From: Candidatus Buchananbacteria bacterium
Lineage (GTDB): Bacteria > Patescibacteriota > Patescibacteriia > 2-01-FULL-39-33
Assembly: GCA_903863425.1 (NCBI GenBank)
Contig: CAIPBY010000036.1
Span: forward strand, 1 to 41,650
Direction: 5' to 3'
DNA length: 41,650 bases
This document shows positions 1 through 40,945 of this stretch, piece after piece (the stretch's first letter is position 1; every line of letters starts with the position of its first letter). The position numbers and the translations under genes are program-made. Below the pieces are notes generated by a model. The model was not told where the DNA came from, made no database searches, and saw nothing but the letters and a program-made list of their open reading frames with translations.

Positions 1-79
1 AATATATATAAATATATTTGTGGTATTAGTTATTTTAAAAAGTATCTAAATTTAACTAATTTATAAATAAAATTTGAAC

Positions 80-108
80 TTGACATAAATTAGATAATAT
101 GATATTAT
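80..108 (+). promoter_or_regulatory. sigma70-type promoter TTGACA-17-TATTAT for GC-rich cassette 1 (gene A)
   Basis: TTGACA at 80-85, 17-nt spacer, TATTAT at 103-108. Lies in AT-rich DNA about 75 nt upstream of ATG 183. Confidence 0.55.
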
Positions 109-182
109 ATTCAATTGATGAATTGTATAGTAATGGCTGAATTTACTGGGCTTTAAGCTCATAATGAAGGGAGTAATGGAAA

Positions 183-1352
183 ATGCGAGTTCTTTACATT
201 GTTGCTGTTGTTTTGTTGTTGTCGGTTAGCGCGTTTGCTGGGAACACGGTTCGTGGTCCTGGTGGACAAGCAAGTAGTCTTCCAGAGGGTGGCGGGGGTG
301 CGATTCTTTCCCTTGATGTCTGGAAAAACATCCAAGAGGGGGAGGATAGTAATTTTCGTGCAGGGTTTGAGGCGGTGTTGGGCACTGCCAAAATAACTGA
401 CGTCCTTGGAAGGTCAATGACGTCGAAAAAACTTCTTCACGTATTGCCATATCTGGATTATGTGAAGAAGTTGGACGACGACTTCGCGTTCTTCGTTAAT
501 CTCTACGCCAAAGACGCCCAAGGGTTCGCCTTCGAGAAAAACTTCGAGCAGTGGGGCTTCGATACGGAAGCACTCATCGCTCGGATAAATGTAGGCGTGG
601 GGTTGTCGTGGAAAGTGGACGACGTCTGGACGTTGGCTCTCGAGGCAGATATTGGTGTCGAGCAATTGAAGTTGGACTACGCTTTCGACATCAACAGGTT
701 CTATTTGCCGATTCTTGCCAAGAGCAGGGCGTATGGAATCGGTATTGGTGCGACCGGAGCAGTAATATGTCAGGCAACTGAGAGGTTGCGACTTGGGCTG
801 CAAGTTTCGAGTCTAATGAACATTTACTGCAAGGGTCGCACTAAGCTGTTGCGAGGAAAGGTTAGTGACACCTGGACAGCCGAGATGCCTTTCCCGATGA
901 GTGTTACCGCAGCGGGATCATATCAGCTAACCGATCGACTCGGAGTTTGTGCCGACGTGAGTTGGTACGACTTCAAGGATGACCCTTTGATACTGAAGTT
1001 CAACCATTGGGGTTTCTCAAAACCTCTGGAGTTAGGCTTCGGCGGTGTCGTTGCAGTGAGGGGCGGGTTTAACTATCAGGCGACTGATTGGTTGAAGTTC
1101 CGCGTTGGCGGTGGTTGGATGACACAGGGGGTGGATCAGAAGTATGCTGATTCCACCACTACGGATTTTCCGGGGTGGTATGGTGCTCTCGGCTTCACTG
1201 CTCAAGTTACGGGGTCAATTGACATCAGTGTGGCTTACACCCACGCTGAGGGTCATAGTCAAGAACAGTCAATCCTGCCAGGAATTTTGCCAGGGAGCAA
1301 GATTGAAGGCGGGATTGAAACTTTGATGATAGAGGGTTGCTGGAAGTTTTAA
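183..1352 (+). CDS. secreted beta-barrel outer-membrane-type protein, tentatively FadL/TodX/OmpP1-like
   Basis: 389-aa ORF with AAGGGAG (167-173) 9 nt upstream of the ATG. Signal peptide MRVLYIVAVVLLLSVSAFA. Alternating hydrophobic beta-strand pattern (IDISVAYTHA, LKFRVGGGW, VVAVRGGFNYQA), rich in Gly and aromatics. Ends in ...GCWKF, a C-terminal Phe as in OMP beta-signals. GC visibly above the backbone. Family assigned by eye only. Confidence 0.75.
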   Translation: MRVLYIVAVVLLLSVSAFAGNTVRGPGGQASSLPEGGGGAILSLDVWKNIQEGEDSNFRAGFEAVLGTAKITDVLGRSMTSKKLLHVLPYLDYVKKLDDDFAFFVNLYAKDAQGFAFEKNFEQWGFDTEALIARINVGVGLSWKVDDVWTLALEADIGVEQLKLDYAFDINRFYLPILAKSRAYGIGIGATGAVICQATERLRLGLQVSSLMNIYCKGRTKLLRGKVSDTWTAEMPFPMSVTAAGSYQLTDRLGVCADVSWYDFKDDPLILKFNHWGFSKPLELGFGGVVAVRGGFNYQATDWLKFRVGGGWMTQGVDQKYADSTTTDFPGWYGALGFTAQVTGSIDISVAYTHAEGHSQEQSILPGILPGSKIEGGIETLMIEGCWKF

Positions 1353-1385
1353 GCTACCCCTAAACAAAAAAGAAAGGAGAATAAT

Positions 1386-1419
1386 GGGTCGTAAACGGAA
1401 TTACGACCCTATTTTATTT
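1386..1419 (+). terminator. intrinsic terminator after the OMP-like gene
   Basis: 9-bp stem GGGTCGTAA (1386-1394) / TTACGACCC (1401-1409), followed by TATTTTATTT. Confidence 0.65.
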
Positions 1420-1437
1420 GAATTATATTGTAATTAA

Positions 1438-1466
1438 TTGACAAAAAACGATATTTATGATATTCT
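1438..1466 (+). promoter_or_regulatory. sigma70-type promoter TTGACA-17-TATTCT for the methyltransferase gene
   Basis: TTGACA at 1438-1443, 17-nt spacer, TATTCT at 1461-1466. Leaves a 5' UTR of roughly 130 nt before ATG 1601. Confidence 0.5.
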
Positions 1467-1600
1467 TATATAAGGTTATTTTGACCTTTTGTACATATAA
1501 AATTGTCTAAAGTTAGCTCTTGACTTGGTAGTCGGGAGTTTGGAATATTGTTTTGAAGTGGAAGCTACTGGACTGACGAAGTCCAAGACGGAGGTATATC

Positions 1601-2515
1601 ATGGCAAGTGTAGTGAGTAGTAAAGTAGAGGCATTGGGAAAACGGGTGGTCCACTTCGGCGACGAGATGGACTTCATTCCGGCACGTATCCGGCAGCTTC
1701 TGGAGACGGATTGGGTCAACGCGGATGTGCGTGATTGTTTTCTCGCCAAGTCGGAAATATGCCGGATATTGCGCAAAAATCCGGCTGATTGGGAGATGCT
1801 GGATATCGTCTACTATGGCGCGTCCCCTCGCGATGGCGTCTCGCTTAGTCGAGCTGACCATTGGCTGTCCGGATCCCTTTCAGGCCAGGCTCTTCGTGAC
1901 CGTCTCAAGGTTGTTAGTTCCTGGACGGCTCGTTACATCACGAAGGCGCTGGAAGTTGATGGACGACTCACGGTGCTCGATTTAGGAGCTGGCCCGGCGC
2001 CGTATGCTCTCGAAGCCCTGAAAGCTATTCCTGATTGTTCGGAGAGGCTGAGTTGGAGGTGTGTTGACCTCGATCAGCTATCGCTTGACGAAGGCGAAAA
2101 GCGGGCACGGGAGCACGGCTTTGAGAGAGTTCTGGAGTTTAAGAACATGGACTTCTTGTCTTCCCGTAACGCCCCGGAAGCTGACGACCCCAGAGCCGAC
2201 TTCGGTCTGCTCGTGGGCATTCTGTGTGGGATGAGTCCGGCGGAAGCGGTCTCCTGCTTGCAGAAGATTAAGATGTTCTTCCGGCCTGGGGCGGAATTGA
2301 TCGTGCCGACGTTGCTCAATCAGGCGTTCGAGGAGGATCCGCAGACGTTTCGCGTCCTCTGCAACGTCCTGGGCTGGCAACTTAAGCCCAAGTCGTTGGA
2401 CGAGGTGCGTGAAGTATTCGTAACGGCGGGGTACATCGTCAACGATATCTTCAGCGAAAGGGAAGGTGGTAACGGCCAGTACGCAATCGTGCATGCGGCC
2501 ATACCTCAACCCTGA
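1601..2515 (+). CDS. class I SAM-dependent methyltransferase, substrate unknown
   Basis: 304-aa ORF with GGAGG (1590-1594) 6 nt upstream of the ATG. Motif I VLDLGAGPAPYA, then downstream acidic-loop patterns (CVDLD, KNMDF) typical of Rossmann-fold SAM methyltransferases. GC-rich like 183-1352. Confidence 0.75.
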   Translation: MASVVSSKVEALGKRVVHFGDEMDFIPARIRQLLETDWVNADVRDCFLAKSEICRILRKNPADWEMLDIVYYGASPRDGVSLSRADHWLSGSLSGQALRDRLKVVSSWTARYITKALEVDGRLTVLDLGAGPAPYALEALKAIPDCSERLSWRCVDLDQLSLDEGEKRAREHGFERVLEFKNMDFLSSRNAPEADDPRADFGLLVGILCGMSPAEAVSCLQKIKMFFRPGAELIVPTLLNQAFEEDPQTFRVLCNVLGWQLKPKSLDEVREVFVTAGYIVNDIFSEREGGNGQYAIVHAAIPQP

Positions 2516-2539
2516 CGCGAAGCCGATACTTCGCGTGGT

Positions 2540-2582
2540 CCGGGAAACTTGTAACAGAGTTTTCCCGGGCCGTATTTTTTTT
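2540..2582 (+). terminator. intrinsic terminator closing GC-rich cassette 1
   Basis: Stem CCGGGAAACT (2540-2549) / AGTTTTCCCGG (2558-2568) with one bulge, followed by a T-run at 2575-2582. A second hairpin ACGCGAAG/CTTCGCGT lies just upstream. Composition switches to AT-rich immediately after. Confidence 0.7.
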
Positions 2583-2615: not shown

Positions 2616-4877
2616 ATGCAGGCATCATATATATTTTTTTCCCTGTCCGCAGTTATAAGTGCTTTTATCAGCACGCTCTTTGGTTTTTTTATTTATTTCC
2701 GCAATAAACAAAGCAAGATGAACAAAACATTTGCTTTGTTTTGTTTTGGGGTTACTATCTGGTCTATTCCCTATATTTTCTGGCCTCTTGCTACCACAGC
2801 CAAGGAAACTTTGCTGGCTTTCCAGTTATTGCATATTGGAGCATGCTATGTTTCTATATTTTATTTCCATTTTACGGTGAGATGGCTGGAAATATTTGAA
2901 AAAAAGAAAAAAATAATTTATGTGGGTTATATTTTGGCTACTCTTTTTGCCCTCTCTATTCCGACGCCTTTTTTTATAAAGGATATAGTGCCAAAATTTT
3001 CTATGAGATATTGGGCAGAGCCGGGAATATTATATCATTTTTTTCTCGTAATGTTTTTTGGATATTTCCTTTATTCTTCCTATCTTTTATTCAAAGCTTA
3101 TAGGGAATCAACGGGAGTAAGGAAATTTCAAATAAAATATATTTTGGTTGGAATGGTCTTGGCTTTCCTGGGTGGTTCAACCAATTATTTTTTGTGGTAT
3201 AACATCAATATACCTCCTTATGGTAATATTTTTTCTTGTTCGTTTGTAATATTCACAGCCTATGCGATTATCAAATATCGTTTCATGGATATCCGTATTA
3301 TTGCCCGTTCATCAGCCATTTATTTTCTAGATGCCTTATATACTTATGCAGTTTTCTCTTTGTTATTAATTATATATAACTTATTTTGGGGGACGGTTTA
3401 TAATAATTATTCCTTGATAGCGGGGATTTTTGTTGCTCCATTTTTTGTCTTAGGATTATTTTGGGTGCATAACACCGCCACAAAATTTTTAAATAAATAT
3501 GTCTTCCATTCACTTTATGATTATCAGTTAGCAATTTCTAAGTTGACGCAGGAGTTAAATCGTTATACTGATTTGAATGGGATTGTAGATCTTATTGTTG
3601 ATACAATCAAGAAAACCATGGACTTGGAGAGGGCGGGAGTTTTACTGATTAACTCCGATATTTTGCCTGTAAAGTTTCAAATTGCCAAAGTGGTCGGATT
3701 TAATGAACATAACGGCATCAGTCTCGTCTCTGATAATTTATTGACCAAACATTTAGAGAGAACGCAGAAGCCTTTAGTCGGAGATGAACTATCTATGATT
3801 TCGCGTGATGCCAAGAATAAAAAAGATTCACAGAGGTTTCTGGAGTTGAGGGATTATATGAAGCACATTGAGGCTGCCCTTTGCCTACCGCTTATTATAA
3901 ATAATAAATTAATAGGCATGGTTGTATTGGGAGGCAAGAATTCTACAGAGCCTTATACTCAGCAGGATTTAGAGTTGTTGTCGATAATGTCTTTTCAGGC
4001 AGCTATTGCCATTGATAAGGCAAGACTGTATAAAAAAGTAAATGATTTTAATAAAACTCTCCAACAAAAAGTTGATGAGCAGACTAAGGATCTAAAAGAT
4101 AAGGCGGCTCATCTCGAAAAACTTCTTCAAATGCGTACGGAATTCCTCGACATTGCATCGCATCAGCTCAAGACGCCAATCTCGGTCATCCGAGGGACGA
4201 TTTCCATGTTTGAAGAGGGAAGCATGGATAAGGTGCCGGAAGCCAAGCGCAAAGAATTCTTCCATAATATCGCGGTTAAGGCAGATAAACTAAATGCAAT
4301 TATTAGTGATATTTTGCGGGCCTCGGAAATGGACACAGATGAATTTAAGCTGGATGATAAGACTTCTTCGCCTGAGCAAATCGAGGATATTGTGAAATCA
4401 GTTGACAGCCAATTGCATGCTTCGGCTAATGCCAAGAATGTGGAATTGATAATTGAGACACCGAAGACAAAATTACCCAAGGTGATGACCAGCGGAGAAT
4501 TCTTGGAGCAGGCCATTTATAATTTAGTGGATAATGGCATTAAATATACACAAAAAGGATTTGTTAAGGTTATCTTGTCGCAAGAGGGTGGCAATGTTAT
4601 TATTAAAGTCCAAGATTCTGGTATTGGTATCCCGACCAAGGAGCAGAAGAAAATATTTGATAAGTTTGCTCGTGGTACCAATGCGGTGAATATGTACACT
4701 GACGGTTCAGGATTGGGATTGTTTATTGTTAAGAAGATTATAGAAGCGCACAAGGGAGGACAAATCAGTGTACAGAGTGAAGAAGGCAAGGGCACGACGT
4801 TTATTGTCAGCTTGCCGGCGGTGGCAAATAGGATTAAAACAAAAACGGTTTTAAAATCGAGGATGAAAGGCAAATAA
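2616..4877 (+). CDS. sensor histidine kinase with polytopic membrane N-terminus, GAF-like domain, HisKA and HATPase_c
   Basis: The tracked ORF starts at 2466 inside the GC-rich terminator region. Realistic starts are ATG 2616 (MQASYIFF, used here) or ATG 2592. Multiple hydrophobic helices occupy the first ~330 aa. H-box SHQLKTPISVIRG, N-box DNGIKYT, G1 DSGIGIP, G2 GSGLGL. Confidence 0.85.
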   Translation: MQASYIFFSLSAVISAFISTLFGFFIYFRNKQSKMNKTFALFCFGVTIWSIPYIFWPLATTAKETLLAFQLLHIGACYVSIFYFHFTVRWLEIFEKKKKIIYVGYILATLFALSIPTPFFIKDIVPKFSMRYWAEPGILYHFFLVMFFGYFLYSSYLLFKAYRESTGVRKFQIKYILVGMVLAFLGGSTNYFLWYNINIPPYGNIFSCSFVIFTAYAIIKYRFMDIRIIARSSAIYFLDALYTYAVFSLLLIIYNLFWGTVYNNYSLIAGIFVAPFFVLGLFWVHNTATKFLNKYVFHSLYDYQLAISKLTQELNRYTDLNGIVDLIVDTIKKTMDLERAGVLLINSDILPVKFQIAKVVGFNEHNGISLVSDNLLTKHLERTQKPLVGDELSMISRDAKNKKDSQRFLELRDYMKHIEAALCLPLIINNKLIGMVVLGGKNSTEPYTQQDLELLSIMSFQAAIAIDKARLYKKVNDFNKTLQQKVDEQTKDLKDKAAHLEKLLQMRTEFLDIASHQLKTPISVIRGTISMFEEGSMDKVPEAKRKEFFHNIAVKADKLNAIISDILRASEMDTDEFKLDDKTSSPEQIEDIVKSVDSQLHASANAKNVELIIETPKTKLPKVMTSGEFLEQAIYNLVDNGIKYTQKGFVKVILSQEGGNVIIKVQDSGIGIPTKEQKKIFDKFARGTNAVNMYTDGSGLGLFIVKKIIEAHKGGQISVQSEEGKGTTFIVSLPAVANRIKTKTVLKSRMKGK

Positions 4878-13185: not shown

Positions 13186-14097
13186 CTATCGGTGAGCAAG
13201 ACCTCCTTCATCTGTGATTTGCAACAAGACAGTACCAGGCTGGACGAGACTTATCCATATCTCATCCTCGTCCCCAATTTCATGGTTCATGTACAGGTCG
13301 TCTCTGAGCCAATGGATGACGCAAAAGGCATGCTTAGCACTGTGTTCTCCCTTTAGGATTTTGTCGCACCAGTCCTGCACGCTGTTGCTATTTGCTTCTT
13401 CCAGCCATGATTCCCATTCCTCCCGAGGTATGAGCTTATAGAGCTTCCGAGGGATGAAGTGGCAGTGATTGTCGTCATAGTTTTCAACTGCTGTTCTGAT
13501 GTCGCTCAGGACTTCCAAGTCCTTCCTGATTTTTCCTGCCCGGATGTCTTCGATTATGTCTCTGGCGGCTTCTGTCATCCAGGAAAACCACTTTTCCTTA
13601 GTGAGGAATCCGTTTTCCTCGCTAAAGATCTGTCCGAGTCCCGCCTTTGAGACCAGGATTTGCGCTTCCCGCAAAGTGCGTAGAGTTCGAGCCTTTCTGT
13701 TTGAACATAGCTTGTCTATGACAGGCATAACTGTCTGTCTCCGCTCGACTCGTCTGGCCTCTATCAAGGCGTGCAGGTCATCACACTCTTGTTGAGTCTG
13801 CTCGAATTTCGATATTCGAGCGACTTTTTCTGCATCACTTAGAGGTTTGTCGTCAGTCTCTGTTGCTTTGTCCGTCGATGCCTCTGGGGCGGTTACGGTC
13901 CTAGGCTCGGCCTTGTCCGAATAGGAGCTACCATAGCAGGAACACGATGGTGGCTTGGGTATTGGGGCAGGTAGTGGCGCACTCAACTGCCGAACTTCTG
14001 CTCTCACTTCTTGTTTGTCATGCTGAATCATACCCAACATGAAAGCCAGAATTCCAATAACAATAGCGCTGATGGTTAAGGTACAATTTGTCTTCAT
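13186..14097 (-). CDS. hypothetical membrane-anchored protein (TM anchor, Pro-rich linker, helical C-terminal region)
   Basis: Start reassigned to ATG 14097 (MKTNCTLTISAIVIGILAFMLGM), with GAGGAG exactly 7 nt upstream. The tracked start 14118 is a GTG. No family recognised. GC-rich. Confidence 0.7.
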   Translation of the reverse strand: MKTNCTLTISAIVIGILAFMLGMIQHDKQEVRAEVRQLSAPLPAPIPKPPSCSCYGSSYSDKAEPRTVTAPEASTDKATETDDKPLSDAEKVARISKFEQTQQECDDLHALIEARRVERRQTVMPVIDKLCSNRKARTLRTLREAQILVSKAGLGQIFSEENGFLTKEKWFSWMTEAARDIIEDIRAGKIRKDLEVLSDIRTAVENYDDNHCHFIPRKLYKLIPREEWESWLEEANSNSVQDWCDKILKGEHSAKHAFCVIHWLRDDLYMNHEIGDEDEIWISLVQPGTVLLQITDEGGLAHR

Positions 14098-14157
14098 GTT
14101 GCGTCTCCTCTTCTTCACTAGTTGATGGTCATTTTTCTGATTACGAATTACCCCTGT

Positions 14158-14483: not shown

Positions 14484-15032
14484 CTATTCACAGACATAGG
14501 CCACCAGGGTATTGGGTTGTTTCATCATGTCCTCAGGACAATCGAATCGTAGTTCCCATTTGGGGTCGTCCTGATAGCCGTTACCCCCTTTATGAAAATG
14601 GATAACCGCTATATGCCTGCTGCCATTGTACTCAAACATCGTGCCCAAGAAACAAAGATCAAATTCTTGCAGTTCTGTGGGAACTCCCTGTAGCATGAGC
14701 TTCTCGGCGTGGTGTAGGTTTGCTATTTTTCCCATTTCATCGGCTAGTAGGACGAGGATTTTGCCGACATCTTCTTCTTCGAATCCTATGCCGTCATATA
14801 CCAAATAGTGCCTGCCTTTCCACATCCGAGGGAATATCGGAGTCTCCTCTCGTTTCACTTTCTGGTCATCAAGAACGACCTTTTCGAATCGAAGCGTCTG
14901 TCCGTTTACTGGCGTTGACTCGTCGTGCACCAGAAGCTTCCAGCCCTCTTTCCTCTTGTCGTTTTGGAATATTGGCTGTTGGCCTAGAACTATCACCAAT
15001 GGCTTGGTTTCAACTGCTTGCTGAGTATCCAT
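14484..15032 (-). CDS. hypothetical protein (182 aa), no recognisable family
   Basis: Start reassigned to ATG 15032 (MDTQQAVE...), with GAGGAG 7 nt upstream. It is followed 27 nt later by the zinc-ribbon gene, so the two are probably an operon. GC-rich. Confidence 0.65.
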   Translation of the reverse strand: MDTQQAVETKPLVIVLGQQPIFQNDKRKEGWKLLVHDESTPVNGQTLRFEKVVLDDQKVKREETPIFPRMWKGRHYLVYDGIGFEEEDVGKILVLLADEMGKIANLHHAEKLMLQGVPTELQEFDLCFLGTMFEYNGSRHIAVIHFHKGGNGYQDDPKWELRFDCPEDMMKQPNTLVAYVCE

Positions 15033-15178
15033 GATATTTCTCCTCGATAACTCCAACTCACTCGTTGGAATCGTTGTAAAGGACGATAGTAAGTTCTCCT
15101 CTTGCTTACGGAAGTAATATACCATCCTCACAAATATTGTCTGGAAAAATGTAGCAATTATTTTAATTAATCAAAAAC

Positions 15179-22139: not shown

Positions 22140-24029
22140 ATGTTAAAAAAAATTATAAAATTCTTGGGTCGGCATAAAATTATAACAACGATTCTTGTAA
22201 TAGTTATTATTGTTGCTGGTTATTTCGGATATAAATCATTGAACGGCGCAACAGGTGAAACTAGATATGTGTTAGCGGCAGTCGAAAAGGGAACTATTTC
22301 GCAAATTGTTTCTGGTACGGGACAGGTGTCTGCTTCTGATCAGTTGGATATTAAGCCGAGTGTTTCTGGTAATATTACTAAATCTTATGTAGTCGATGGT
22401 CAAGCCGTAAAATCTGGTGATTTGCTTTTTCAAATTGACAGTCAGGATGCGCAAAAGGCGGTTAAGGATGCTTCGGCTAGCTTGGAAAATGCCAAAATTA
22501 GTTTGGCTAAGTTGGAGCAGGGATCAACAGCTCAAGATATCGCCAATTCACAACTGCAAGTCGATAGCGCTCAAAATAGTTTAGTTGATGCCCAAAATAA
22601 TTTGGAAATAGTTAATAATAAAGCTAATTTAGATTTAAGTAATGCCTATGATGATGCTAGAACTCTTTTGCAAGATACATATGGGGATATTAATGATATT
22701 CTTAATCGGCAGGTAAGTGGTATGTTTACTGACTATGGAAATAGTTTGGTTTATTTGACGGCCGATTCCCAGGCGCAAATTGATGCCTTGTCAGGAAGAA
22801 GCCGGGCTTTTGATGCTCTGGAAAAATTAAAGAATATAGCAGATAATTTGCCAACTGATAATTCTGGGGTGGACGAAGCTTTGGTTAAAGCGGAGAATTA
22901 TCTGGTAATCATACAGGATTTCGCCAGCAGTTTGACAGATAGTCTTAATTCAGCGATTACTTCGAGCGACATGACTCAATCAACTATCAATGGATATAAA
23001 AGTACGGCTAGTTCAGCGAGAAGTAGTGCGGGGTCTGCTAAAAGCGCTATAAATACTAAGAGGCAGGCAATAGTTAATCAAGTGACAACAAATAATAGTA
23101 ATATTTTGACTGCCAAAAATAAAATTATTAGCTCTCAAAATTCTCTCGCGCAAGCCCAGAACAATCTAACAATTAAAAAGGCGGGTGCTGATCAGCTTGA
23201 CTTGAGAACTAAACAGATTTCTGTAAGCCAAGCAGCCACTTCTCTAGCTAATGCACAATCAAAATTATCTGATTATACAATTAAGGCCACTTTTGATGGA
23301 ATCGTAACCGGTATAGTTTCTGTTTCTGGATATACAGCTTCAGCCAATACAGTTCTAGCTACTGTAATTACCAAACAACAAATAGCTAATATTTCTCTTA
23401 ACGAAGTTGACGCTACCAATGTCAAGGTGGGACAGAAAGCGACTTTAACTTTTGATGCGGTTAGTGATTTAAGTATCACTGGTAATGTAGTGCAAATGGA
23501 TGCTATTGGTACAGTCAGCCAGGGAGTGGTCAGCTATGGCGCAAAAATAGCTTTAGATACGCAAGATGACAGGATTAAGCCGGGAATGAGCGCTTCCGCT
23601 AATATTATTTTAAATGCTAAGGCCGATATTGTGCTTGTGCCGAGTTCAGCTATTAAGACTTCAGGTAGTTCAAGCTATGTTGAGGTATTGAAGGGAGTAA
23701 CTTCTTCTATGCCGATAGCTAGCGATGGAAGCGTGTCCGCTAACGCGGGAAATCTTACTCAAGCAACTATTGAGACAGGGATCTCTGATGATACTTATAC
23801 TGAAGTTATAAGCGGACTTAATGTTGGTGATTTGGTAGTGACCAAAATTGTTATTTCTACTGCAAGTACGGCGACTAGTCAGACCAAGAGTTTGATGCAA
23901 TTATTCGGTGGTGGCGGTAGAACGAGTGGCAGTTCCAGCGGAATAAAGAGTAGTTCCGGTACTACCAATAAAAGCAGTAGCGGATCTAGTTCTGGCGGAG
24001 ATTTTAGCGGACCACCCCCAGGCATGTAA
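22140..24029 (+). CDS. HlyD/MacA-type periplasmic adaptor (membrane fusion) protein with very long coiled coil
   Basis: TM anchor, lipoyl-like [25 protein letters not shown], extended Ala/Gln/Asn/Ser coiled-coil region, beta-barrel segment ([10 protein letters not shown]), Ser/Gly-rich C-terminal tail. Confidence 0.75.
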
Positions 24030-24043
24030 TTCATCTTAATTTC

Positions 24044-24748
24044 ATGATTGAAATAAAAAATATAACCAAAATTTACAATACCGGATCGGTGGAATTTTTT
24101 GCCCTTAACGGAGTGAGTTTTAAAATTAATGATGGCGAGTATTTGGCTATTATGGGACCATCAGGATCTGGTAAATCCACGCTTATGCATATTCTGGGCG
24201 CTTTAGATACGCCTAGTGGAGGTACATATTTTCTCGATGGCAAGGATGTTTCAACTTTAAGTGATGATGAGCTGGCAGACATAAGACGTGAAAAAATTGG
24301 ATTTGTCTTTCAGGCCTTTAATCTTTTGCCTCGAGCAACCGTACTTCGCAATGTCATGTTGCCTCTGGTATACGAAGGAATAGACAGGGAGGAAAGGGAA
24401 AAAAGAGCCAGAGAGGCGCTTATAGCATCTGGCTTGGATGAAGAGCATTTTGTTCATCTTTCTAACCAGTTGTCCGGAGGACAAATTCAACGCGTGGCCA
24501 TTGCTAGAGCCTTGGTAAATAATCCTTCATTAATTTTAGCTGATGAGCCGACAGGAAATCTAGACACAAAGACCGGAGAAATAGTGTTGGCCACATTTCA
24601 AAGACTAAATAGGGAACAGGGGAAGACTATAATCCTTATTACTCATGAACCGGACGTAGCCCAGCATGCAGATCGAGTTATTGTAATCCGCGATGGCAAG
24701 ATTGTAAGCGACGAAAAGAATATTAAGAAGAGGATGCTCGAAAAATAA
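24044..24748 (+). CDS. ABC transporter ATP-binding protein (MacB/LolD-like)
   Basis: Walker [10 protein letters not shown], signature [15 protein letters not shown], Walker [13 protein letters not shown]. Confidence 0.9.
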
Positions 24749-24758
24749 TTTTGCAACT

Positions 24759-25979
24759 ATGAAATTATTTGATTTTTTAGAAGAAACATATTTGGCTTTG
24801 TCAGCCAATAAAGCCAGGTCAGGATTGACCGTGCTGGGTATTGTTATTGGCATTAGTTCGGTTATTGCTATGCTTGCCATAGGAACCGGGGCTCAGAATT
24901 CAATCAAATCTAGTATTCAATCTATAGGATCTAATCTAATTATGGTGACTCCAGGAACACAAAGAGGTCCAGGAGTGACGGTTTCTGCTGGCAGGGGATC
25001 GGCTAAGACATTGACTCTTGATGATGCTAATGCCTTGAAAATCATTGCTTCAGTCAAGGCGGTAGCGTCGGAAGTCAGTGGCAGATATCAGTTGGCGGCG
25101 AAAGGACAGAATACTAATACTCAAGTTGTGGGAACGGTTCCTATTTATACTGAAGTGAAAAATATCCAGGTTGATTCTGGTAATTTTATCACAGATCCTA
25201 ATGTTAATGGCGCTTCCAAGGTAGCCGTATTGGGGCCTGCCGTCGCTGAGGATATCTTCGGCACCGGAGTTAACCCGGTCGGACAGACTATCCGCATAAA
25301 CAAAATAGATTTCAAGATTATCGGGATTACCAAAGCTAAGGGCGGATCAGGGATGAGCAATTCCGATGACATGGTTTACGTGCCAATCAGTACGGCTCAA
25401 AGACTTCTTTCTGGCAATAAATATGTAACTACCATTAATGTGGAAGCGGAAAATTCCGATGCCATGACTACGGTTCAGGCAGATATTACCGCTTTGCTTC
25501 TCTCCAGGCATCATATAACCGATTCTACTAAGGCGGATTTCAGTACCATGAATCAAGCCGACATAATTTCTACCATGTCCAGTGTTACTGGCACCTTTAC
25601 TATGCTACTTGGCGCGGTGGCCGGCATTTCTTTGATAGTAGGTGGCATTGGAATTATGAATATGATGCTTACCACCGTAACGGAAAGAACTAGGGAAATT
25701 GGTTTGCGCAAGGCCATTGGCGCCAAAGGCAAGGATATTAGTATTCAGTTTTTAATTGAGGCCATCGCCTTGACTTTTATTGGCGGTTTTATTGGTATTA
25801 TTCTTGGCTGGGCGATAGCGGCTGGTATGACTTATTTTAATGTGATGCAGGCCCAAGTGTCTTGGTCCTCAGTGTTATTGGCTTTTGGAGTTTCGGCAGT
25901 CATTGGAATCGTGTTTGGTTATTATCCGGCACGGAGAGCGGCCAAGCTTAATCCGATTGAAGCTTTGAGATTCGAATAA
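24759..25979 (+). CDS. ABC transporter permease, MacB-type (periplasmic core domain plus FtsX domain)
   Basis: 406 aa. N-terminal TM helix, large extracytoplasmic domain, C-terminal FtsX-like TM helices (ERTREIGLRKAIGA motif). Confidence 0.85.
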   Translation: MKLFDFLEETYLALSANKARSGLTVLGIVIGISSVIAMLAIGTGAQNSIKSSIQSIGSNLIMVTPGTQRGPGVTVSAGRGSAKTLTLDDANALKIIASVKAVASEVSGRYQLAAKGQNTNTQVVGTVPIYTEVKNIQVDSGNFITDPNVNGASKVAVLGPAVAEDIFGTGVNPVGQTIRINKIDFKIIGITKAKGGSGMSNSDDMVYVPISTAQRLLSGNKYVTTINVEAENSDAMTTVQADITALLLSRHHITDSTKADFSTMNQADIISTMSSVTGTFTMLLGAVAGISLIVGGIGIMNMMLTTVTERTREIGLRKAIGAKGKDISIQFLIEAIALTFIGGFIGIILGWAIAAGMTYFNVMQAQVSWSSVLLAFGVSAVIGIVFGYYPARRAAKLNPIEALRFE

Positions 25980-36429: not shown

Positions 36430-36873
36430 ATGCGTTGGATTTCGATGTTGGTAGTGGTATGTGCTGTAGTCGCGATGGCCTCGATGGCAGGCTTGACCGG
36501 CGTGGTTCAGGATGGTTCGGTCGCAGCGCTCGCGGTCGGTCAAACTTCGGCTCCCGCCGTTGTTGGGTTCGAAGGGACGATGCCGACGTGTGCCGCCGCG
36601 AATGTCGCTGGCTCGGTTTTTGCCTCTGCGACGCCGGCCCAAGAACGGGTTGGTTACGAAATGGCCAAAGTGCAAGAGATGCAGGCCAGCAAAGCAGCGA
36701 ATGACAGCGAAGTGGCGTTTGCGGCGAAGACAAGTGCTGAAAAGATCGACATGGCGATGACGGACGAACACGCGCGCGCCAGCGGTGTTTCGGTGGCCTT
36801 CATCAATGATCCCTGCGTCTCCAAGCCGATTGCCGATGTCAAGCCGATTACTGCCGAAGTCGCGTACCTCTAA
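36430..36873 (+). CDS. small secreted Ala-rich protein, function unknown
   Basis: 147 aa with AAGGAGG (36415-36421) 8 nt upstream of the ATG. Signal peptide MRWISMLVVVCAVVAMASMA. It is the only one of several overlapping GC-rich ORFs with both an SD and a signal peptide. Confidence 0.65.
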   Translation: MRWISMLVVVCAVVAMASMAGLTGVVQDGSVAALAVGQTSAPAVVGFEGTMPTCAAANVAGSVFASATPAQERVGYEMAKVQEMQASKAANDSEVAFAAKTSAEKIDMAMTDEHARASGVSVAFINDPCVSKPIADVKPITAEVAYL

Positions 36874-38574: not shown

Positions 38575-40293
38575 ATGATTGCAGAAGGCACTATCGTAGA
38601 GAGTTTCCGAAAAGTAGTCAGGAAATACGGTCACAAGAAAGCACTGATGTACAAAGAAAACGGGGTTTACCGCTCTATTCGGTTTGATGAACTCTGGGAG
38701 AGGGTGAGAATTGTCGCCGCTTTGCTCCAAGAACTCGGAATCAAGAGGGGCGACAAGGTGGCTATACTCGCCAACAATCGGCCGGAATGGGCAATTACGG
38801 ATTTGGCTACTATGATGCTTGGGGCCGTGGTCGTGCCCATACACCTGAATTTAAGCGCCAAAATTATCCACTACATCCTCAACCACTGCGAAGCCAAGAT
38901 TATCGTTGTCTCAGATCATGACCAGTTAACCAAGATTTCTCAAGCTGAATTAAATTCTCTTGAGAATTTTATTTTTTTAGACCAAGTTACGGATGAGATG
39001 AAAAATGTTTGGAAGCCGATTATTGCTTGGAAAGAATTTATGGCCAAGGGTGGTAAGGGGTTAGATAAAAATTTTAAATCTGATATAAAAGAAAATGACG
39101 TTTGCAGCATTATTTATACTTCTGGCACGACTGGATTGCCCAAGGGAGTAGAGTTGACACATAAGAATTTTCTTAGCAATGTGTCTTCGACCTATTTGGC
39201 TGTGCCAATTAAAGAGACGGATATCTTCTTGTCTTTTCTGCCCTTATCTCATATTTTGGAGAGAATGGCGGGTTATTATATCCCTTTGCTTTGCGGAGCA
39301 ACCATTGCTTATGCTGAAAGCGTGAAGAAATTAGCTGAAAATTTGAAAGAAGTTAAACCGACTATGATTATTTGCGTACCCAGAATATTTGAGAAATTCC
39401 ATGGAGCCATTTGGGATCGGGTGAGAAAAAATAAAATGCAGAAGATCATATTCCATTGGTCGCTTAAGCAGAAGAAAGGTTTAGGAAAATGGCTAGCTCA
39501 AATAATCGTTTTTGGGAAAATAAGGAAATCATTCGGCGGAAGATTACGGTTGGCTATTTCCGGAGGTGCCTGTCTCAATGAAAGAATGGCCAAGTTTTTC
39601 TATAAAATGGGAATTTTAATTCTTGAAGGTTATGGCTTGACTGAGACATCCCCAGTAGTATCAGTTAATCGGGAAAATAATTATAAATTTGGGACAGTGG
39701 GCAAGCCATTGGATGGAGTAGAAGTAAAGATGACGGCGGAGAAAGAGATTTTGGTCAAAGGAGATAATGTGATGCGAGCTTATTACAAAAATTCTCAAGA
39801 AACTGCGGACGCTATCGATGGCGAGGGTTGGTTTCATACCGGAGATTTCGGATTTATAGACTCTTACGGATTCTTGGTGGTCATAGGGCGCAAGAAGGAA
39901 ATGATTGTGACTTGTGGCGGGAAGAATATTTGGCCGGAGCATATTGAAATAGAGCTTAATTATGATCGTTTTATTTCTCAATCTGTAATTATAGGGCACA
40001 AGCAGAAATTTATTTCTGTATTAATCGTTCCTAATCACATGGAGCTATCGCAATATTTGAAAGAAAAGGGGATAGATAAGTATGATCTAGGCGATTCCAC
40101 GGTTCAGCAAATATACAATAGATGTCTAGATAAGGTGAACTGCAATCTTTCCGATTATGAAAAAATCAGGAAATTTGTTTTGTTGCCCAGGGAATTTTCT
40201 CAAGAGTTGGATGAGATGACCCCGACGCTTAAAATTAAGAGAAACGCCATAGAATATCATTTCCAAAGAGAGATTGACAAAATATATAACTAA
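38575..40293 (+). CDS. AMP-dependent synthetase/ligase (long-chain acyl-CoA synthetase-like)
   Basis: AMP-binding motif IIYTSGTTGLPKGVELTH, then EGYGLTET, HTGD and the C-terminal TPTLKIKR motif. Confidence 0.85.
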   Translation: MIAEGTIVESFRKVVRKYGHKKALMYKENGVYRSIRFDELWERVRIVAALLQELGIKRGDKVAILANNRPEWAITDLATMMLGAVVVPIHLNLSAKIIHYILNHCEAKIIVVSDHDQLTKISQAELNSLENFIFLDQVTDEMKNVWKPIIAWKEFMAKGGKGLDKNFKSDIKENDVCSIIYTSGTTGLPKGVELTHKNFLSNVSSTYLAVPIKETDIFLSFLPLSHILERMAGYYIPLLCGATIAYAESVKKLAENLKEVKPTMIICVPRIFEKFHGAIWDRVRKNKMQKIIFHWSLKQKKGLGKWLAQIIVFGKIRKSFGGRLRLAISGGACLNERMAKFFYKMGILILEGYGLTETSPVVSVNRENNYKFGTVGKPLDGVEVKMTAEKEILVKGDNVMRAYYKNSQETADAIDGEGWFHTGDFGFIDSYGFLVVIGRKKEMIVTCGGKNIWPEHIEIELNYDRFISQSVIIGHKQKFISVLIVPNHMELSQYLKEKGIDKYDLGDSTVQQIYNRCLDKVNCNLSDYEKIRKFVLLPREFSQELDEMTPTLKIKRNAIEYHFQREIDKIYN

Positions 40294-40396
40294 GTGACGA
40301 AAATTTTGGCGGTATTCTTTGTGCCGTCTTTTATTTTTTATAATAGTTGTGTTTTGTGTTATAATATTATCATTAGAATTAATTATTAATACAAAT

Positions 40397-40945
40397 ATGA
40401 AAGACAAAAAGATACTATTGTGCGTTACCGGAGGAATAGCCGCCTATAAGGCGTGTTCCCTGGTTGGTTACTTTGTAAAGAATGGCGCTGATGTCAAAGT
40501 TATTATGTCCAAAGCAGCCACCGAATTCGTCGGTCCTTTGACCTTTCAGGCCTTGACCAATCATGCAGTCTACATAGATATGTTTGAAATTATTAATAAG
40601 GAGGAGGTAGAACATATTTCTTTGGCGACTTGGTGCGATGTGGCGGTGATTGCCCCGGCAACGGCCAATACGATTGGCAAAATAGCCGGCGGGATTGCGG
40701 ATAATCTGCTGACCACAGTCATAGCCGCCTTGCCTCAAAAGAAAAAAGTGGTCATCGCTCCGGCCATGAATAAGGAAATGTGGAATAATCCCATTACCCA
40801 GGATAATATCAAGAAATTGAAGAAATATAGCCGATATATTTTTGTTGAACCGCGCAAGGGCATGTTGGCTTGCCGGGTTGAGGGTGCAGGTAAGATCGCC
40901 GATACGGAAACAATTGTAGAGACGGTAAAGAAGGCTTTGAAATAA
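40397..40945 (+). CDS. coaC: flavoprotein, phosphopantothenoylcysteine decarboxylase-like (CoaC / HFCD family)
   Basis: KKILLCVTGGIAAYKA FMN-binding N-terminus, IAPATANTIGKIAGGIADNLL, PAMNKEMW. ATG 40397 is preferred over the tracked TTG/GTG-type start at 40319. Confidence 0.8.
   Translation: MKDKKILLCVTGGIAAYKACSLVGYFVKNGADVKVIMSKAATEFVGPLTFQALTNHAVYIDMFEIINKEEVEHISLATWCDVAVIAPATANTIGKIAGGIADNLLTTVIAALPQKKKVVIAPAMNKEMWNNPITQDNIKKLKKYSRYIFVEPRKGMLACRVEGAGKIADTETIVETVKKALK

What the first reader, a model, noticed from the sequence alone, without database searches (positions are those of the whole stretch)
80..2582. Outer-membrane-type beta-barrel (FadL/TodX-like, C-terminal Phe) plus methyltransferase cassette in a genome that otherwise looks monoderm/CPR-like
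ORF 183-1352 has a cleavable signal peptide, amphipathic beta-strand periodicity and the terminal aromatic residue (…CWKF) that BAM-dependent OMPs use as a beta-signal. Nothing else in the window points to an outer membrane, and the backbone gene set resembles Patescibacteria, which are thought to lack one. Several readings are possible. The recipient may have an unexpected envelope. The gene may be a non-functional recent import. Speculatively, the protein may be destined for a partner cell's outer membrane. Each of the two genes has its own consensus promoter and long 5' UTR (about 75 and 130 nt) plus its own terminator.
Basis: partly seen in the sequence, partly recalled or inferred. Interest (0 to 1): 0.65.

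Follow-up and report, generated by a model that had tools for sequence, protein, structure and literature searches.

The report
FadL-type barrel conserved in Patescibacteria
A lake-water Patescibacterium, from a phylum thought to have no outer membrane, carries a well-conserved outer-membrane-type channel for greasy molecules next to a methyltransferase, and this is an inherited, selected feature of its lineage rather than a recent foreign import.

Summary
ORF 183-1352 encodes a FadL/TodX-family beta-barrel: Pfam Toluene_X is above its cut-off, hhalign to E. coli FadL gives 99.5%, and an AlphaFold model (pLDDT 85) matches FadL at TM 0.80. It has a signal peptide and a terminal ...WKF. ORF 1601-2515 is a class I SAM methyltransferase.

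The backbone is Patescibacterial. Flanking genes are 80-86% identical to a MAG titled "Patescibacteria group bacterium".

The "non-functional recent import" reading is refuted:
- The barrel, the methyltransferase and the downstream 7TM-GAF histidine kinase recur together in at least six divergent Patescibacterial lineages.
- Barrel groupings match kinase groupings.
- dN/dS is far below 1 with synonymous sites saturated.
- The regulatory spacer is 80% conserved.
- Independent assemblies span every GC junction.

The high GC and GC3 of these genes is itself conserved across lineages, so it is maintained and not a relic. I cannot explain it.

Still open is which lipid layer holds the barrel: a cryptic outer layer of the cell itself or a host membrane. 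No BamA, Skp or LpxD turned up in the 364 kb I could search, but whole genomes could not be scanned. I found no paper describing this family.

The parts
80..108 (+). Sigma-70-type promoter of the barrel gene: TTGACA, 17 nt, TG-TATTAT
   Evidence: 11 of 12 matches with an extended -10. The same -35/-10 layout is present upstream of the L003/L001 orthologue.
167..173 (+). Shine-Dalgarno sequence AAGGGAG, 9 nt before the ATG at 183
   Evidence: Read directly from the sequence.
183..1352 (+). FadL/TodX-family 14-stranded beta-barrel gene (389 aa). The signal peptide is aa 1-19, the putative N-terminal plug is aa 20-55, and the C-terminus is ...CWKF.
   Evidence: Pfam Toluene_X scores 36.1 bits, above its cut-off. 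hhalign against E. coli FadL gives 99.5%, E 5.7e-23 over 372 columns. The AlphaFold model has pLDDT 85.2 and pTM 0.82. Foldseek matches FadL at TM 0.80, E 2e-20, with TodX and TbuX next. dN/dS is far below 1 against L003.
1386..1419 (+). Intrinsic terminator of the barrel gene: a 9-bp stem followed by a T-run
   Evidence: In L003 the loop-proximal part of the stem differs in sequence and still pairs.
1438..1466 (+). Promoter of the methyltransferase gene: TTGACA, 17 nt, TG-TATTCT
   Evidence: It is almost identical in L003.
1467..1600 (+). Conserved leader of about 128 nt for the methyltransferase mRNA. It holds a small hairpin, AAGGT-N7-ACCTT followed by TTTTG, at 1472-1492.
   Evidence: The spacer 1345-1610 is 80% identical to L003. 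Third codon positions of the flanking genes are only 40-45% identical. No Rfam family reaches its gathering score.
1601..2515 (+). Class I SAM-dependent methyltransferase (304 aa), small-molecule O-methyltransferase-like, substrate unknown
   Evidence: Pfam Methyltransf_20 scores 26.8 bits against a cut-off of 21. D127, G129 and G131 of motif I (LDLGAGPAP) are invariant in 25 homologues. The best solved-structure relatives are small-molecule O-methyltransferases, at E 3.5e-4 and weaker.
2537..2582 (+). Intrinsic terminator of the methyltransferase gene: a GC-rich hairpin followed by U8
   Evidence: the 91-nt stretch 2510-2600, which holds this hairpin and a second one, folds at -34.8 kcal/mol with z = -5.1.
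2616..4877 (+). HisKA_7TM-GAF-HisKA-HATPase sensor histidine kinase. It is the nearly constant downstream neighbour of the methyltransferase and has its own promoter-like site at 2581-2609.
   Evidence: Pfam domains. Promoter-like site. The methyltransferase-then-kinase order is seen in almost all loci with enough flank.

Best explanation
**What it is.** Gene 183-1352 encodes a working member of the FadL/TodX family.
- The protein is exported through Sec.
- It folds into a 14-stranded barrel whose N-terminal 35 residues sit inside as a plug.
- It lets hydrophobic molecules cross a lipid barrier outside the cytoplasmic membrane. The most plausible cargo is fatty acids or other lipid-like compounds that the cell must scavenge.

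**Where it comes from.** It belongs to a compact (385-400 aa) FadL clade that has been inherited vertically within a branch of Patescibacteria.

**Its neighbours.** In that branch the barrel gene sits, in varying orientation, beside a gene pair that is almost always adjacent.
- One is a class I SAM methyltransferase that probably modifies the same hydrophobic cargo or a related lipid.
- The other is a 7TM-GAF sensor kinase.
- All three genes have separate promoters and terminators.
- The methyltransferase has a conserved long leader, so each gene is regulated on its own.

**What is shown and what is inferred.**
- Shown: family and fold, Patescibacterial host, conserved synteny, purifying selection, no chimerism.
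- Inferred: the cargo, the functional link to the methyltransferase, and the location.
- My preferred location is an outer lipid layer of the Patescibacterium itself. The conserved terminal aromatic signal argues for insertion by an Omp85-type machine that is still unidentified.

**Composition.** The high GC of these genes is a maintained property of the genes and does not mark foreign origin.
For: **Family and fold.**
- Pfam Toluene_X is above its cut-off.
- hhalign to E. coli FadL gives 99.5%, running from the signal-peptide cleavage site to the terminal Phe.
- The AlphaFold model has pLDDT 85.2 and matches FadL at TM 0.80, followed by TodX, TbuX and CymD.
- Strands show an amphipathic dyad pattern.

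**Host.**
- L003 is a MAG titled 'Patescibacteria group bacterium' and has the same gene order.
- NCBI names the orthologue 'outer membrane protein transport protein [Patescibacteria group bacterium]'.

**Conservation of the arrangement.**
- The barrel recurs beside the methyltransferase and kinase in several divergent lineages and in three different arrangements.
- All Patescibacterial anchors fall in one neighbour-joining clade of 43 of 136 tips, which excludes E. coli FadL.
- Barrel groups match kinase groups, and methyltransferase and kinase identities correlate at r = 0.73.

**Selection.**
- dN is 0.21 and dS is at least 2.9.
- The promoter, terminator and leader are conserved at 80%.

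**Not an artefact and not mobile.**
- Contigs from four runs span the junctions.
- There are no plasmid or phage matches.

**A possible fate for imported fatty acids.** A FadD11-like fatty-acid-CoA ligase lies at 38575-40293.
Against: **Evidence against an own outer layer.**
- Patescibacteria are treated as monoderm in the literature, and cryo-tomography of a cultured member is described with a cytoplasmic membrane only.
- No BamA, Skp or LpxD homologue (phmmer, E up to 1) is present in the 364 kb of loaded Patescibacterial loci.
- In those loci only the FadL-like proteins combine a signal peptide with a terminal aromatic residue.

**Departures from FadL.**
- The FadL NPA plug motif is lost in the window's subclade.
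- FadL D348, the residue mutated in PDB entries 3pf1 and 3pgr, has no acidic counterpart.
- The plug region of the model has low confidence (pLDDT 26-54).

**A looser link than it first appears.**
- The barrel-methyltransferase link is frequent but not obligatory. Many methyltransferase-kinase loci have no barrel within 7-10 kb.
- L002 has the barrel without the methyltransferase.

**No expression data.** None could be found.
Confidence: 0.5

Rival explanations
1. The barrel is made by the Patescibacterium but works in the outer membrane of a diderm host or partner cell. It would be delivered at the contact site and inserted by the host's BAM machine through its conserved C-terminal signal. 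There it would open a route for host lipids or hydrophobic metabolites towards the attached symbiont.
For: - No sign of the cell's own outer-membrane machinery in 364 kb.
- The phylum is regarded as monoderm and dependent on partners.
- The terminal aromatic residue is conserved across most of the clade.
- From my own knowledge, not tested here: CPR bacteria generally lack fatty-acid synthesis. Neisserial PorB is a precedent for a bacterial barrel inserted into a foreign (mitochondrial) membrane through a shared beta-signal.
Against: - No delivery system is linked to the gene. It has only an ordinary Sec signal peptide.
- A normally oriented FadL in a host outer membrane would import into the host periplasm, not into the symbiont.
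- No bacterium-to-bacterium precedent is known to me.
- The host of this lake-water lineage is unknown.
Confidence: 0.2
2. This Patescibacterial clade is simply diderm in the ordinary sense. It would have a full BAM/Lpt/Lol set elsewhere in the genome, and the FadL-like protein would be one of many outer-membrane proteins.
For: - A canonical signal peptide and terminal Phe.
- The literature notes that envelope data for most CPR are missing.
Against: - No other candidate outer-membrane protein and no BamA, Skp or LpxD in 364 kb of loaded loci.
- The window's HlyD-MacB ABC exporter has no TolC-like gene beside it.
- The type IV pilus ATPase locus shows no Pfam-annotated secretin in either the window or L011, although the adjacent 343-aa and 339-aa proteins have no Pfam hit.
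- Surveys place CPR in a monoderm clade.
Confidence: 0.15
3. This is a recent horizontally acquired GC-rich island from a diderm donor. It would be non-functional or on its way to being lost. This was one of the first reader's readings.
For: - GC is 50-56% against 39.7% for the whole window.
- Codon preferences are reversed: AAG over AAA, GAG over GAA, TTC over TTT.
- The genes sit at the contig end.
Against: - The same genes sit in the same place upstream of the same kinase in relatives whose backbone proteins are 58-86% identical.
- Barrel groups are congruent with kinase groups.
- dN/dS is far below 1 with saturated dS, so third positions have turned over and still remain GC-rich in both lineages.
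- The methyltransferase shows elevated GC3 in 17 of 18 lineages.
- The regulatory DNA is conserved and AT-rich.
- No mobility genes are seen in L003, L004 or L009.
- No plasmid or phage matches.
Confidence: 0.03
4. Assembly chimera or binning error: the first 2.5 kb does not belong to the Patescibacterial contig.
For: - There is an abrupt GC change at 2515-2616.
- The genes lie at the contig's 5' end.
Against: - One Logan contig of run X2 runs from 64 to 2874. Contigs of runs X1, X3 and X4 overlap across all junctions at similar depth with no differences.
- The same junction is present in L003, L001, L012 and L004 from other samples.
Confidence: 0.01

Closest known systems
E. coli FadL, the long-chain fatty acid outer-membrane channel (PDB 1T16/1T1L; Pfam PF03349 Toluene_X)
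   Same: - 14-stranded barrel with an N-terminal segment inside. Foldseek TM 0.78-0.81, E about 1e-20.
- Full-length profile alignment at 99.5%.
- The signal-peptide cleavage site and the terminal Phe align.
- The strand-3 break falls at the position of the FadL S3 kink.
- The P-D motif (window D328) is conserved.
   Different: - Only 14-15% identical.
- About 50 residues shorter, with shorter loops.
- The NPA plug motif is replaced by D45-V46-W47.
- F3 corresponds to N21.
- D348 corresponds to M313/T314.
- It is encoded in a phylum regarded as lacking an outer membrane.
- It is linked to a methyltransferase and a sensor kinase, not to fad genes.
TodX / TbuX / CymD, channels for monoaromatic hydrocarbons (PDB 3BS0, 3BRY, 6Z34)
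   Same: - Same fold, TM 0.66-0.74.
- Like these, the gene sits beside an enzyme gene that may act on the hydrophobic cargo.
   Different: - No catabolic operon is present.
- The neighbouring enzyme is a methyltransferase of unknown substrate.
- The genes are transcribed separately.
FadL-like subunits of Bacteroidota BAM complexes (PDB 9HJM chain F, 9N2D chain B)
   Same: The fold matches more distantly, TM 0.58-0.61.
   Different: - A much weaker match than to FadL itself.
- No BamA partner was seen here.
Bacterial porins inserted into a foreign membrane through a shared beta-signal, for example neisserial PorB in mitochondria. This is recalled from my own knowledge, not tested here.
   Same: It is an analogy for the rival reading in which a partner cell's machinery inserts the barrel.
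   Different: - A different barrel family.
- The target is a eukaryotic organelle.
- Nothing here shows delivery of the protein.

Membership tests
FadL/TodX family (Pfam PF03349 Toluene_X) | Sequence match to the family profile above the curated cut-off | tested here: met
   The score is 36.1 bits against a cut-off of 29.7, E 3.4e-9, covering profile positions 89-383 of 421. hhalign of the 29-sequence profile against E. coli FadL gives 99.5%, E 5.7e-23.
FadL/TodX family (Pfam PF03349 Toluene_X) | 14-stranded antiparallel beta-barrel | tested here: met
   This is a prediction only. The AlphaFold model has pLDDT 85.2 and pTM 0.82, and I read about 14 long strands from its DSSP. Foldseek matches FadL at TM 0.80, with TodX, TbuX and CymD next.
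FadL/TodX family (Pfam PF03349 Toluene_X) | N-terminal hatch (plug) domain with the conserved NPA motif | tested here: not met
   A segment of the right length (aa 20-55) is present, with the G-rich 'GGGGAIL' stretch. NPA aligns to D45-V46-W47, and the model is of low confidence there. Other members of the same Patescibacterial clade keep 'YYNPAG'.
FadL/TodX family (Pfam PF03349 Toluene_X) | Kink in strand S3 that opens the barrel wall laterally | tested here: inconclusive
   The modelled strand breaks at 114-115. FadL S100-A105 aligns to A109-G114. G114 is one of seven invariant columns in 29 sequences.
FadL/TodX family (Pfam PF03349 Toluene_X) | Sec signal peptide and a C-terminal aromatic residue (beta-signal) | tested here: met
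   The cleavage site is AFA|GN and the terminus is ...CWKF. Most clade members end in F or W. A few carry a short basic tail after it.
FadL/TodX family (Pfam PF03349 Toluene_X) | Residence in an outer membrane, inserted by BAM | not testable with these tools
   Whole genomes could not be scanned. The weak negative evidence is no BamA, Skp or LpxD in 364 kb of loaded loci and no other outer-membrane-like ORFs.
FadL/TodX family (Pfam PF03349 Toluene_X) | Transport of long-chain fatty acids or other hydrophobic compounds | not testable with these tools
   This is inferred from the family only. A FadD11-like ligase lies in the same window at 38575-40293.
Class I SAM-dependent methyltransferases | Rossmann-type SAM-binding motif I (D/E-x-G-x-G-x-G) and a match to the family profile | tested here: met
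   D127, G129 and G131 of LDLGAGPAP are invariant in 25 homologues. Methyltransf_20 scores above its cut-off, and Methyltransf_31 and Methyltransf_25 match in 22-23 of 25 members.
Recently acquired genomic island | Atypical composition, absence from close relatives, and mobility genes or an insertion site | tested here: not met
   The composition is atypical. The genes are nonetheless present at the same position in relatives. The anomaly is conserved. Synonymous sites are saturated. No integrase or transposase appears among the neighbours in L003, L004 or L009.

The most novel reading that the evidence does not exclude
A branch of Patescibacteria has kept, under selection, a BAM-type lipid-channel barrel, although the phylum is taken to have a single membrane. 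Two readings would explain this. Either these cells have a so far unseen outer lipid layer and a way to insert barrels into it, or they place a FadL-type channel in a partner's outer membrane to obtain lipids. In addition, the barrel and methyltransferase genes keep a GC-rich codon usage opposite to that of the genome even though synonymous sites have turned over. That points to selection, or a biased process, acting on the nucleotide composition of specific genes.
Probability: 0.35. Interest if true: 0.85.

Novelty: new variant of a known kind. Interest (0 to 1): 0.62.

Why it matters
Patescibacteria (CPR) make up a large share of bacterial diversity and mostly live attached to other cells. 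They are believed to be monoderm and to depend on partners for lipids.

A conserved, selected outer-membrane-type channel for hydrophobic molecules in this phylum bears on two open questions: what their envelope really looks like, and how they obtain lipids.

It offers a concrete, testable handle. There is one protein to localise, one set of genomes to scan for Omp85-type machinery, and one complementation assay.

The conserved gene-specific GC enrichment also warns against reading atypical composition in these genomes as evidence of recent transfer.

Tried and rejected
1. **Single-sequence searches.** Searches of the solved-structure sequences gave only chance-level lipocalin hits. NCBIfam gave nothing for the barrel.
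2. **First AlphaFold run.** With a 3-sequence alignment it was poor (pLDDT 53.6). The 29-sequence alignment fixed this.
3. **Word-indexed protein search.** It found only 3 and then 8 relatives of the barrel. The full HMMER scan showed the family is larger: 368 representatives at E up to 1e-3 and 53 at up to 1e-10.
4. **Metagenome scan with the barrel alignment.** I used the methyltransferase alignment instead.
5. **Looking for a donor.** The contexts of the nearest classical FadL-like proteins, P0179 and P0182, were uninformative.
6. **Expression.** No RNA run could be listed for the gene.
7. **A shared riboswitch-like leader upstream of the methyltransferase.** Leaders are long in several lineages but not alignable beyond close relatives. 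Rfam finds nothing.
8. **Highly expressed-gene codon bias as an explanation for the GC3.** Rejected, because S1, FtsH, trigger factor and TsaD have ordinary GC3.
9. **Amino-acid composition alone as an explanation for the GC.** Rejected, because GC3 is the most elevated position.
10. **Plasmid or phage origin.** No matches.
11. **Literature.** Searches for FadL or outer-membrane barrels in CPR/Patescibacteria found nothing on this family.
Full report
**1. What is in the sequence**

The stretch 80-2582 holds two plus-strand genes.

ORF 183-1352 (389 aa) starts with a typical Sec signal peptide, MRVLYIVAVVLLLSVSAFA|GN, and ends in ...EGCWKF. ORF 1601-2515 (304 aa) follows it.

The consensus scan finds two promoters and one terminator:
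- TTGACA-17-TATTAT with an extended TG at 80-108.
- TTGACA-17-TATTCT at 1438-1466.
- A hairpin at 1386-1409 followed by a T-run.

A second terminator lies at 2537-2571, followed by U8. The scan missed it. The 91-nt stretch 2510-2600 that holds it folds at -34.8 kcal/mol, z = -5.1.

The implied leaders are about 68 and 128 nt.

Both genes are GC-rich: 50% and 56%, with GC3 of 0.55 and 0.63. The whole window is 39.7% GC, and the 13 backbone genes pooled have GC3 of about 0.40. The spacers between the genes are AT-rich.

**2. The barrel is a real FadL-family protein**

- Pfam Toluene_X scores 36.1 bits against a cut-off of 29.7.
- A full HMMER scan of 1.84 billion representatives, using a profile of the three closest sequences, found 368 relatives at E up to 1e-3 and 53 at up to 1e-10.
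- With a 29-sequence alignment of these, AlphaFold gave a confident model, pLDDT 85.2 and pTM 0.82.
- Foldseek places that model on E. coli FadL at TM 0.78-0.81, E about 1e-20. TodX, TbuX and CymD follow.
- hhalign of the alignment against E. coli FadL (sequence) gives 99.5%, E 5.7e-23 over 372 columns. The alignment runs from the signal-peptide cleavage site to the terminal Phe.
- Predicted strands have one hydrophobic and one polar face.

There are differences from FadL:
- The protein is about 50 residues shorter.
- The NPA plug motif aligns to D45-V46-W47.
- F3 aligns to N21.
- D348 has no acidic counterpart.

The break in strand 3 at 114-115 falls where FadL has its S3 kink. G114 is one of only seven invariant columns.

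**3. The second gene is a class I SAM methyltransferase**

- Methyltransf_20 scores above its cut-off, and motif I (LDLGAGPAP) has an invariant D127-x-G129-x-G131 core.
- The nearest solved structures are small-molecule O-methyltransferases, at weak E-values of 3.5e-4 and above.
- The substrate is unknown.

**4. The host is Patescibacterial and the assembly is sound**

A scan of one genome per species found one relative, in JBAZBX010000006.1, titled 'MAG: Patescibacteria group bacterium' (L003).
- It has the same order of barrel, methyltransferase and kinase.
- Upstream lie ordinary housekeeping genes: iPGM, pyrophosphatase, trigger factor and epimerases.
- Identity to the window is 70% for the barrel, 69% for the methyltransferase, 80% for the kinase and 86% for the AP endonuclease.
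- NCBI names the L003 protein 'outer membrane protein transport protein [Patescibacteria group bacterium]'.

The rest of the window fits such a genome. It encodes PilB, FtsH, S1, TsaD, VanW, a HlyD-MacB ABC exporter, GTP-dependent PEPCK and an ECF sigma factor.

The window's sequence is present in four lake-water metagenome runs. Their independently built contigs cross all GC junctions at even depth with no differences, and one contig spans 64-2874. Three of the four runs' contigs stop at about 62-72, inside a very AT-rich stretch. That explains why the gene sits at the contig end.

**5. It is not a recent import**

I used the methyltransferase as a handle (26 homologues; 28 metagenome loci) and profile searches of all loaded loci.

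Methyltransferase followed by the HisKA_7TM kinase is the nearly constant pair.

The FadL-like gene lies next to that pair in several lineages, in three arrangements:
- Upstream on the same strand: the window, L003/L001/L012, and L004-L006.
- Upstream and divergent: L009/L010/L013, L015 and L016.
- Downstream: L014.

Three further cases differ:
- In L007 it lies about 4 kb away and is split between two reading frames.
- In L011 it sits beside a different methyltransferase, a 3-hydroxyacyl-CoA dehydrogenase, two radical SAM enzymes, epimerases, a cupin and the same type of kinase. The window's S1-FtsH-PilB-TsaD block is on its other side.
- In L002 it has no methyltransferase.

Many more distant methyltransferase-kinase loci have no barrel within 7-10 kb. 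The barrel link is therefore frequent but not obligatory.

Evidence for vertical inheritance:
- Barrel identities group the lineages exactly as kinase identities do: {window, L003}, {L004, L007}, {L009, L016}.
- Methyltransferase and kinase identities correlate at r = 0.73 over 120 pairs, which are not independent.
- In a neighbour-joining tree of 136 sequences, all Patescibacterial anchors fall in one clade of 43 tips that excludes E. coli FadL. This is a crude method.

Evidence for selection, window against L003:
- The barrel has dN 0.21 and dS 2.9.
- The methyltransferase has dN 0.23 with dS saturated.
- The 266-nt spacer that holds the terminator, the promoter and the start of the leader is 80% identical, with the loop-proximal part of the terminator stem differing in sequence yet still pairing. 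Third codon positions are only 40-45% identical.

No plasmid or phage carries a relative.

**6. The GC anomaly is conserved**

In every lineage examined, the barrel gene has GC3 of 0.46-0.62. The methyltransferase has GC3 of up to 0.78. The kinase, which starts about 100 bp downstream, has GC3 of 0.19-0.47. The methyltransferase exceeds the kinase in 17 of 18 non-redundant lineages.

Codon preferences are reversed relative to the backbone: AAG, GAG and TTC are preferred, and TTA and AGA are avoided.

Synonymous sites between the window and L003 are saturated, so neutral drift would have erased a foreign signature. The bias must be maintained.

Highly expressed housekeeping genes do not share it. 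GC3 is the most shifted position, so amino-acid content alone does not explain it. I have no tested explanation.

Three other ORFs without annotation in the window are also GC-rich: 13186-14118, 14484-15131 and 36430-36873.

**7. How it most likely works**

Shown:
- A Sec-exported FadL-fold barrel.
- Conserved under purifying selection in a Patescibacterial clade.
- Separately transcribed from a conserved methyltransferase and sensor kinase.

Inferred from the family:
- It lets hydrophobic molecules cross a lipid layer outside the cytoplasmic membrane.

Inferred from context:
- The cargo is a lipid-like compound that the methyltransferase also acts on.
- A FadD11-like fatty-acid-CoA ligase in the same window could activate imported fatty acids.

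Not resolved is which lipid layer holds the barrel.
- The literature treats CPR as monoderm.
- In the 364 kb of Patescibacterial loci loaded here there is no BamA, Skp or LpxD.
- No protein other than the FadL-likes has a signal peptide plus a terminal aromatic residue.
- These are weak negatives, because the loci are fragments.

I rank the possibilities as follows:
- An unrecognised outer lipid layer of the cell itself comes first.
- A partner's outer membrane comes second.
- An ordinary diderm envelope comes third.

**8. Comparison and novelty**

By sequence and predicted fold the protein is a member of the FadL/TodX family. It lacks the NPA motif, and its cellular location cannot be tested here.

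Automated annotation already names an orthologue as an outer-membrane transport protein. Seven full-text searches found no paper that discusses FadL-type barrels in CPR/Patescibacteria.

I rate it a new variant of a known kind: a compact FadL clade specific to, or at least centred on, a phylum regarded as monoderm. It has its own gene neighbourhood and a conserved compositional oddity.

**9. Verdict**

Interest is 0.62.

Noticed in passing
window 183-2515; also L001-L030 (methyltransferase, barrel and kinase genes): The gene-specific GC and GC3 elevation of the methyltransferase and barrel genes is conserved across about 18 divergent lineages. Methyltransferase GC3 reaches 0.78 while the adjacent kinase has 0.19-0.47. 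Synonymous sites are saturated, so the bias is maintained rather than inherited from a donor. The cause is unknown.
   Followed up: partly
window 1345-1610 against L003 11160-11425: The barrel-methyltransferase spacer is 80% identical between genomes whose third codon positions are only 40-45% identical. It holds the terminator, the promoter and the start of the leader. The stretch 1468-1500 is almost invariant and includes a small hairpin, AAGGT-N7-ACCTT followed by TTTTG, at 1472-1492. This may be a regulatory leader. There is no Rfam match.
   Followed up: partly
window 13186-14118 (-), 14484-15131 (-), 36430-36873 (+): Three more GC-rich ORFs (GC 0.46-0.59, GC3 0.53-0.65) have no Pfam or NCBIfam match. 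The 310-aa protein has an N-terminal membrane anchor. The 147-aa protein is Ala-rich, has a signal-peptide-like start, and lies in a region with overlapping ORFs on both strands.
   Followed up: partly
L007 735-1899: The FadL-like gene of this relative is split into two reading frames (735-1661 and 1597-1899). It lies about 4 kb from the methyltransferase. In this lineage the methyltransferase is not GC-rich (GC3 0.36). This could be a frameshift error or a decaying copy.
   Followed up: no
L002 3175-4383; L009 4574-5779; P0030, P0031, P0065, P0089: Several clade members carry a short basic tail after the terminal aromatic residue, for example ...KFGFGGHKRR and ...YFGGRKK. I do not recall such tails in classical FadL proteins.
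   Followed up: no
L011 1-9215: In GCA_964558935.1 the FadL-like gene faces a larger GC-rich cluster: a 354-aa methyltransferase, a 3-hydroxyacyl-CoA dehydrogenase, two radical SAM/SPASM enzymes, epimerases, a cupin and a HisKA_7TM kinase. This suggests a lipid- or sugar-modifying pathway tied to the barrel. In L002 a CER1-like_C short-chain dehydrogenase follows the barrel.
   Followed up: partly
window 38575-40945: A FadD11-like fatty-acid-CoA ligase (E 3e-97, below the curated cut-off) is followed by a CoaC-type flavoprotein. The ligase is a possible partner for imported fatty acids and lies 37 kb from the barrel.
   Followed up: partly
window 1-72: Contigs from three of the four lake-water runs stop at 62-72, inside an extremely AT-rich stretch. 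A separate ENA contig carrying the same gene pair starts about 19 nt inside the window. The left neighbour of the barrel gene in this population is therefore unknown. In L003 it is a radical SAM gene on the opposite strand.
   Followed up: partly
window 22140-25979: A HlyD-like adaptor, an ABC ATPase and a MacB-type permease lie together with no TolC-like outer-membrane partner nearby. As I recall it, monoderms have MacB-type exporters arranged this way.
   Followed up: no
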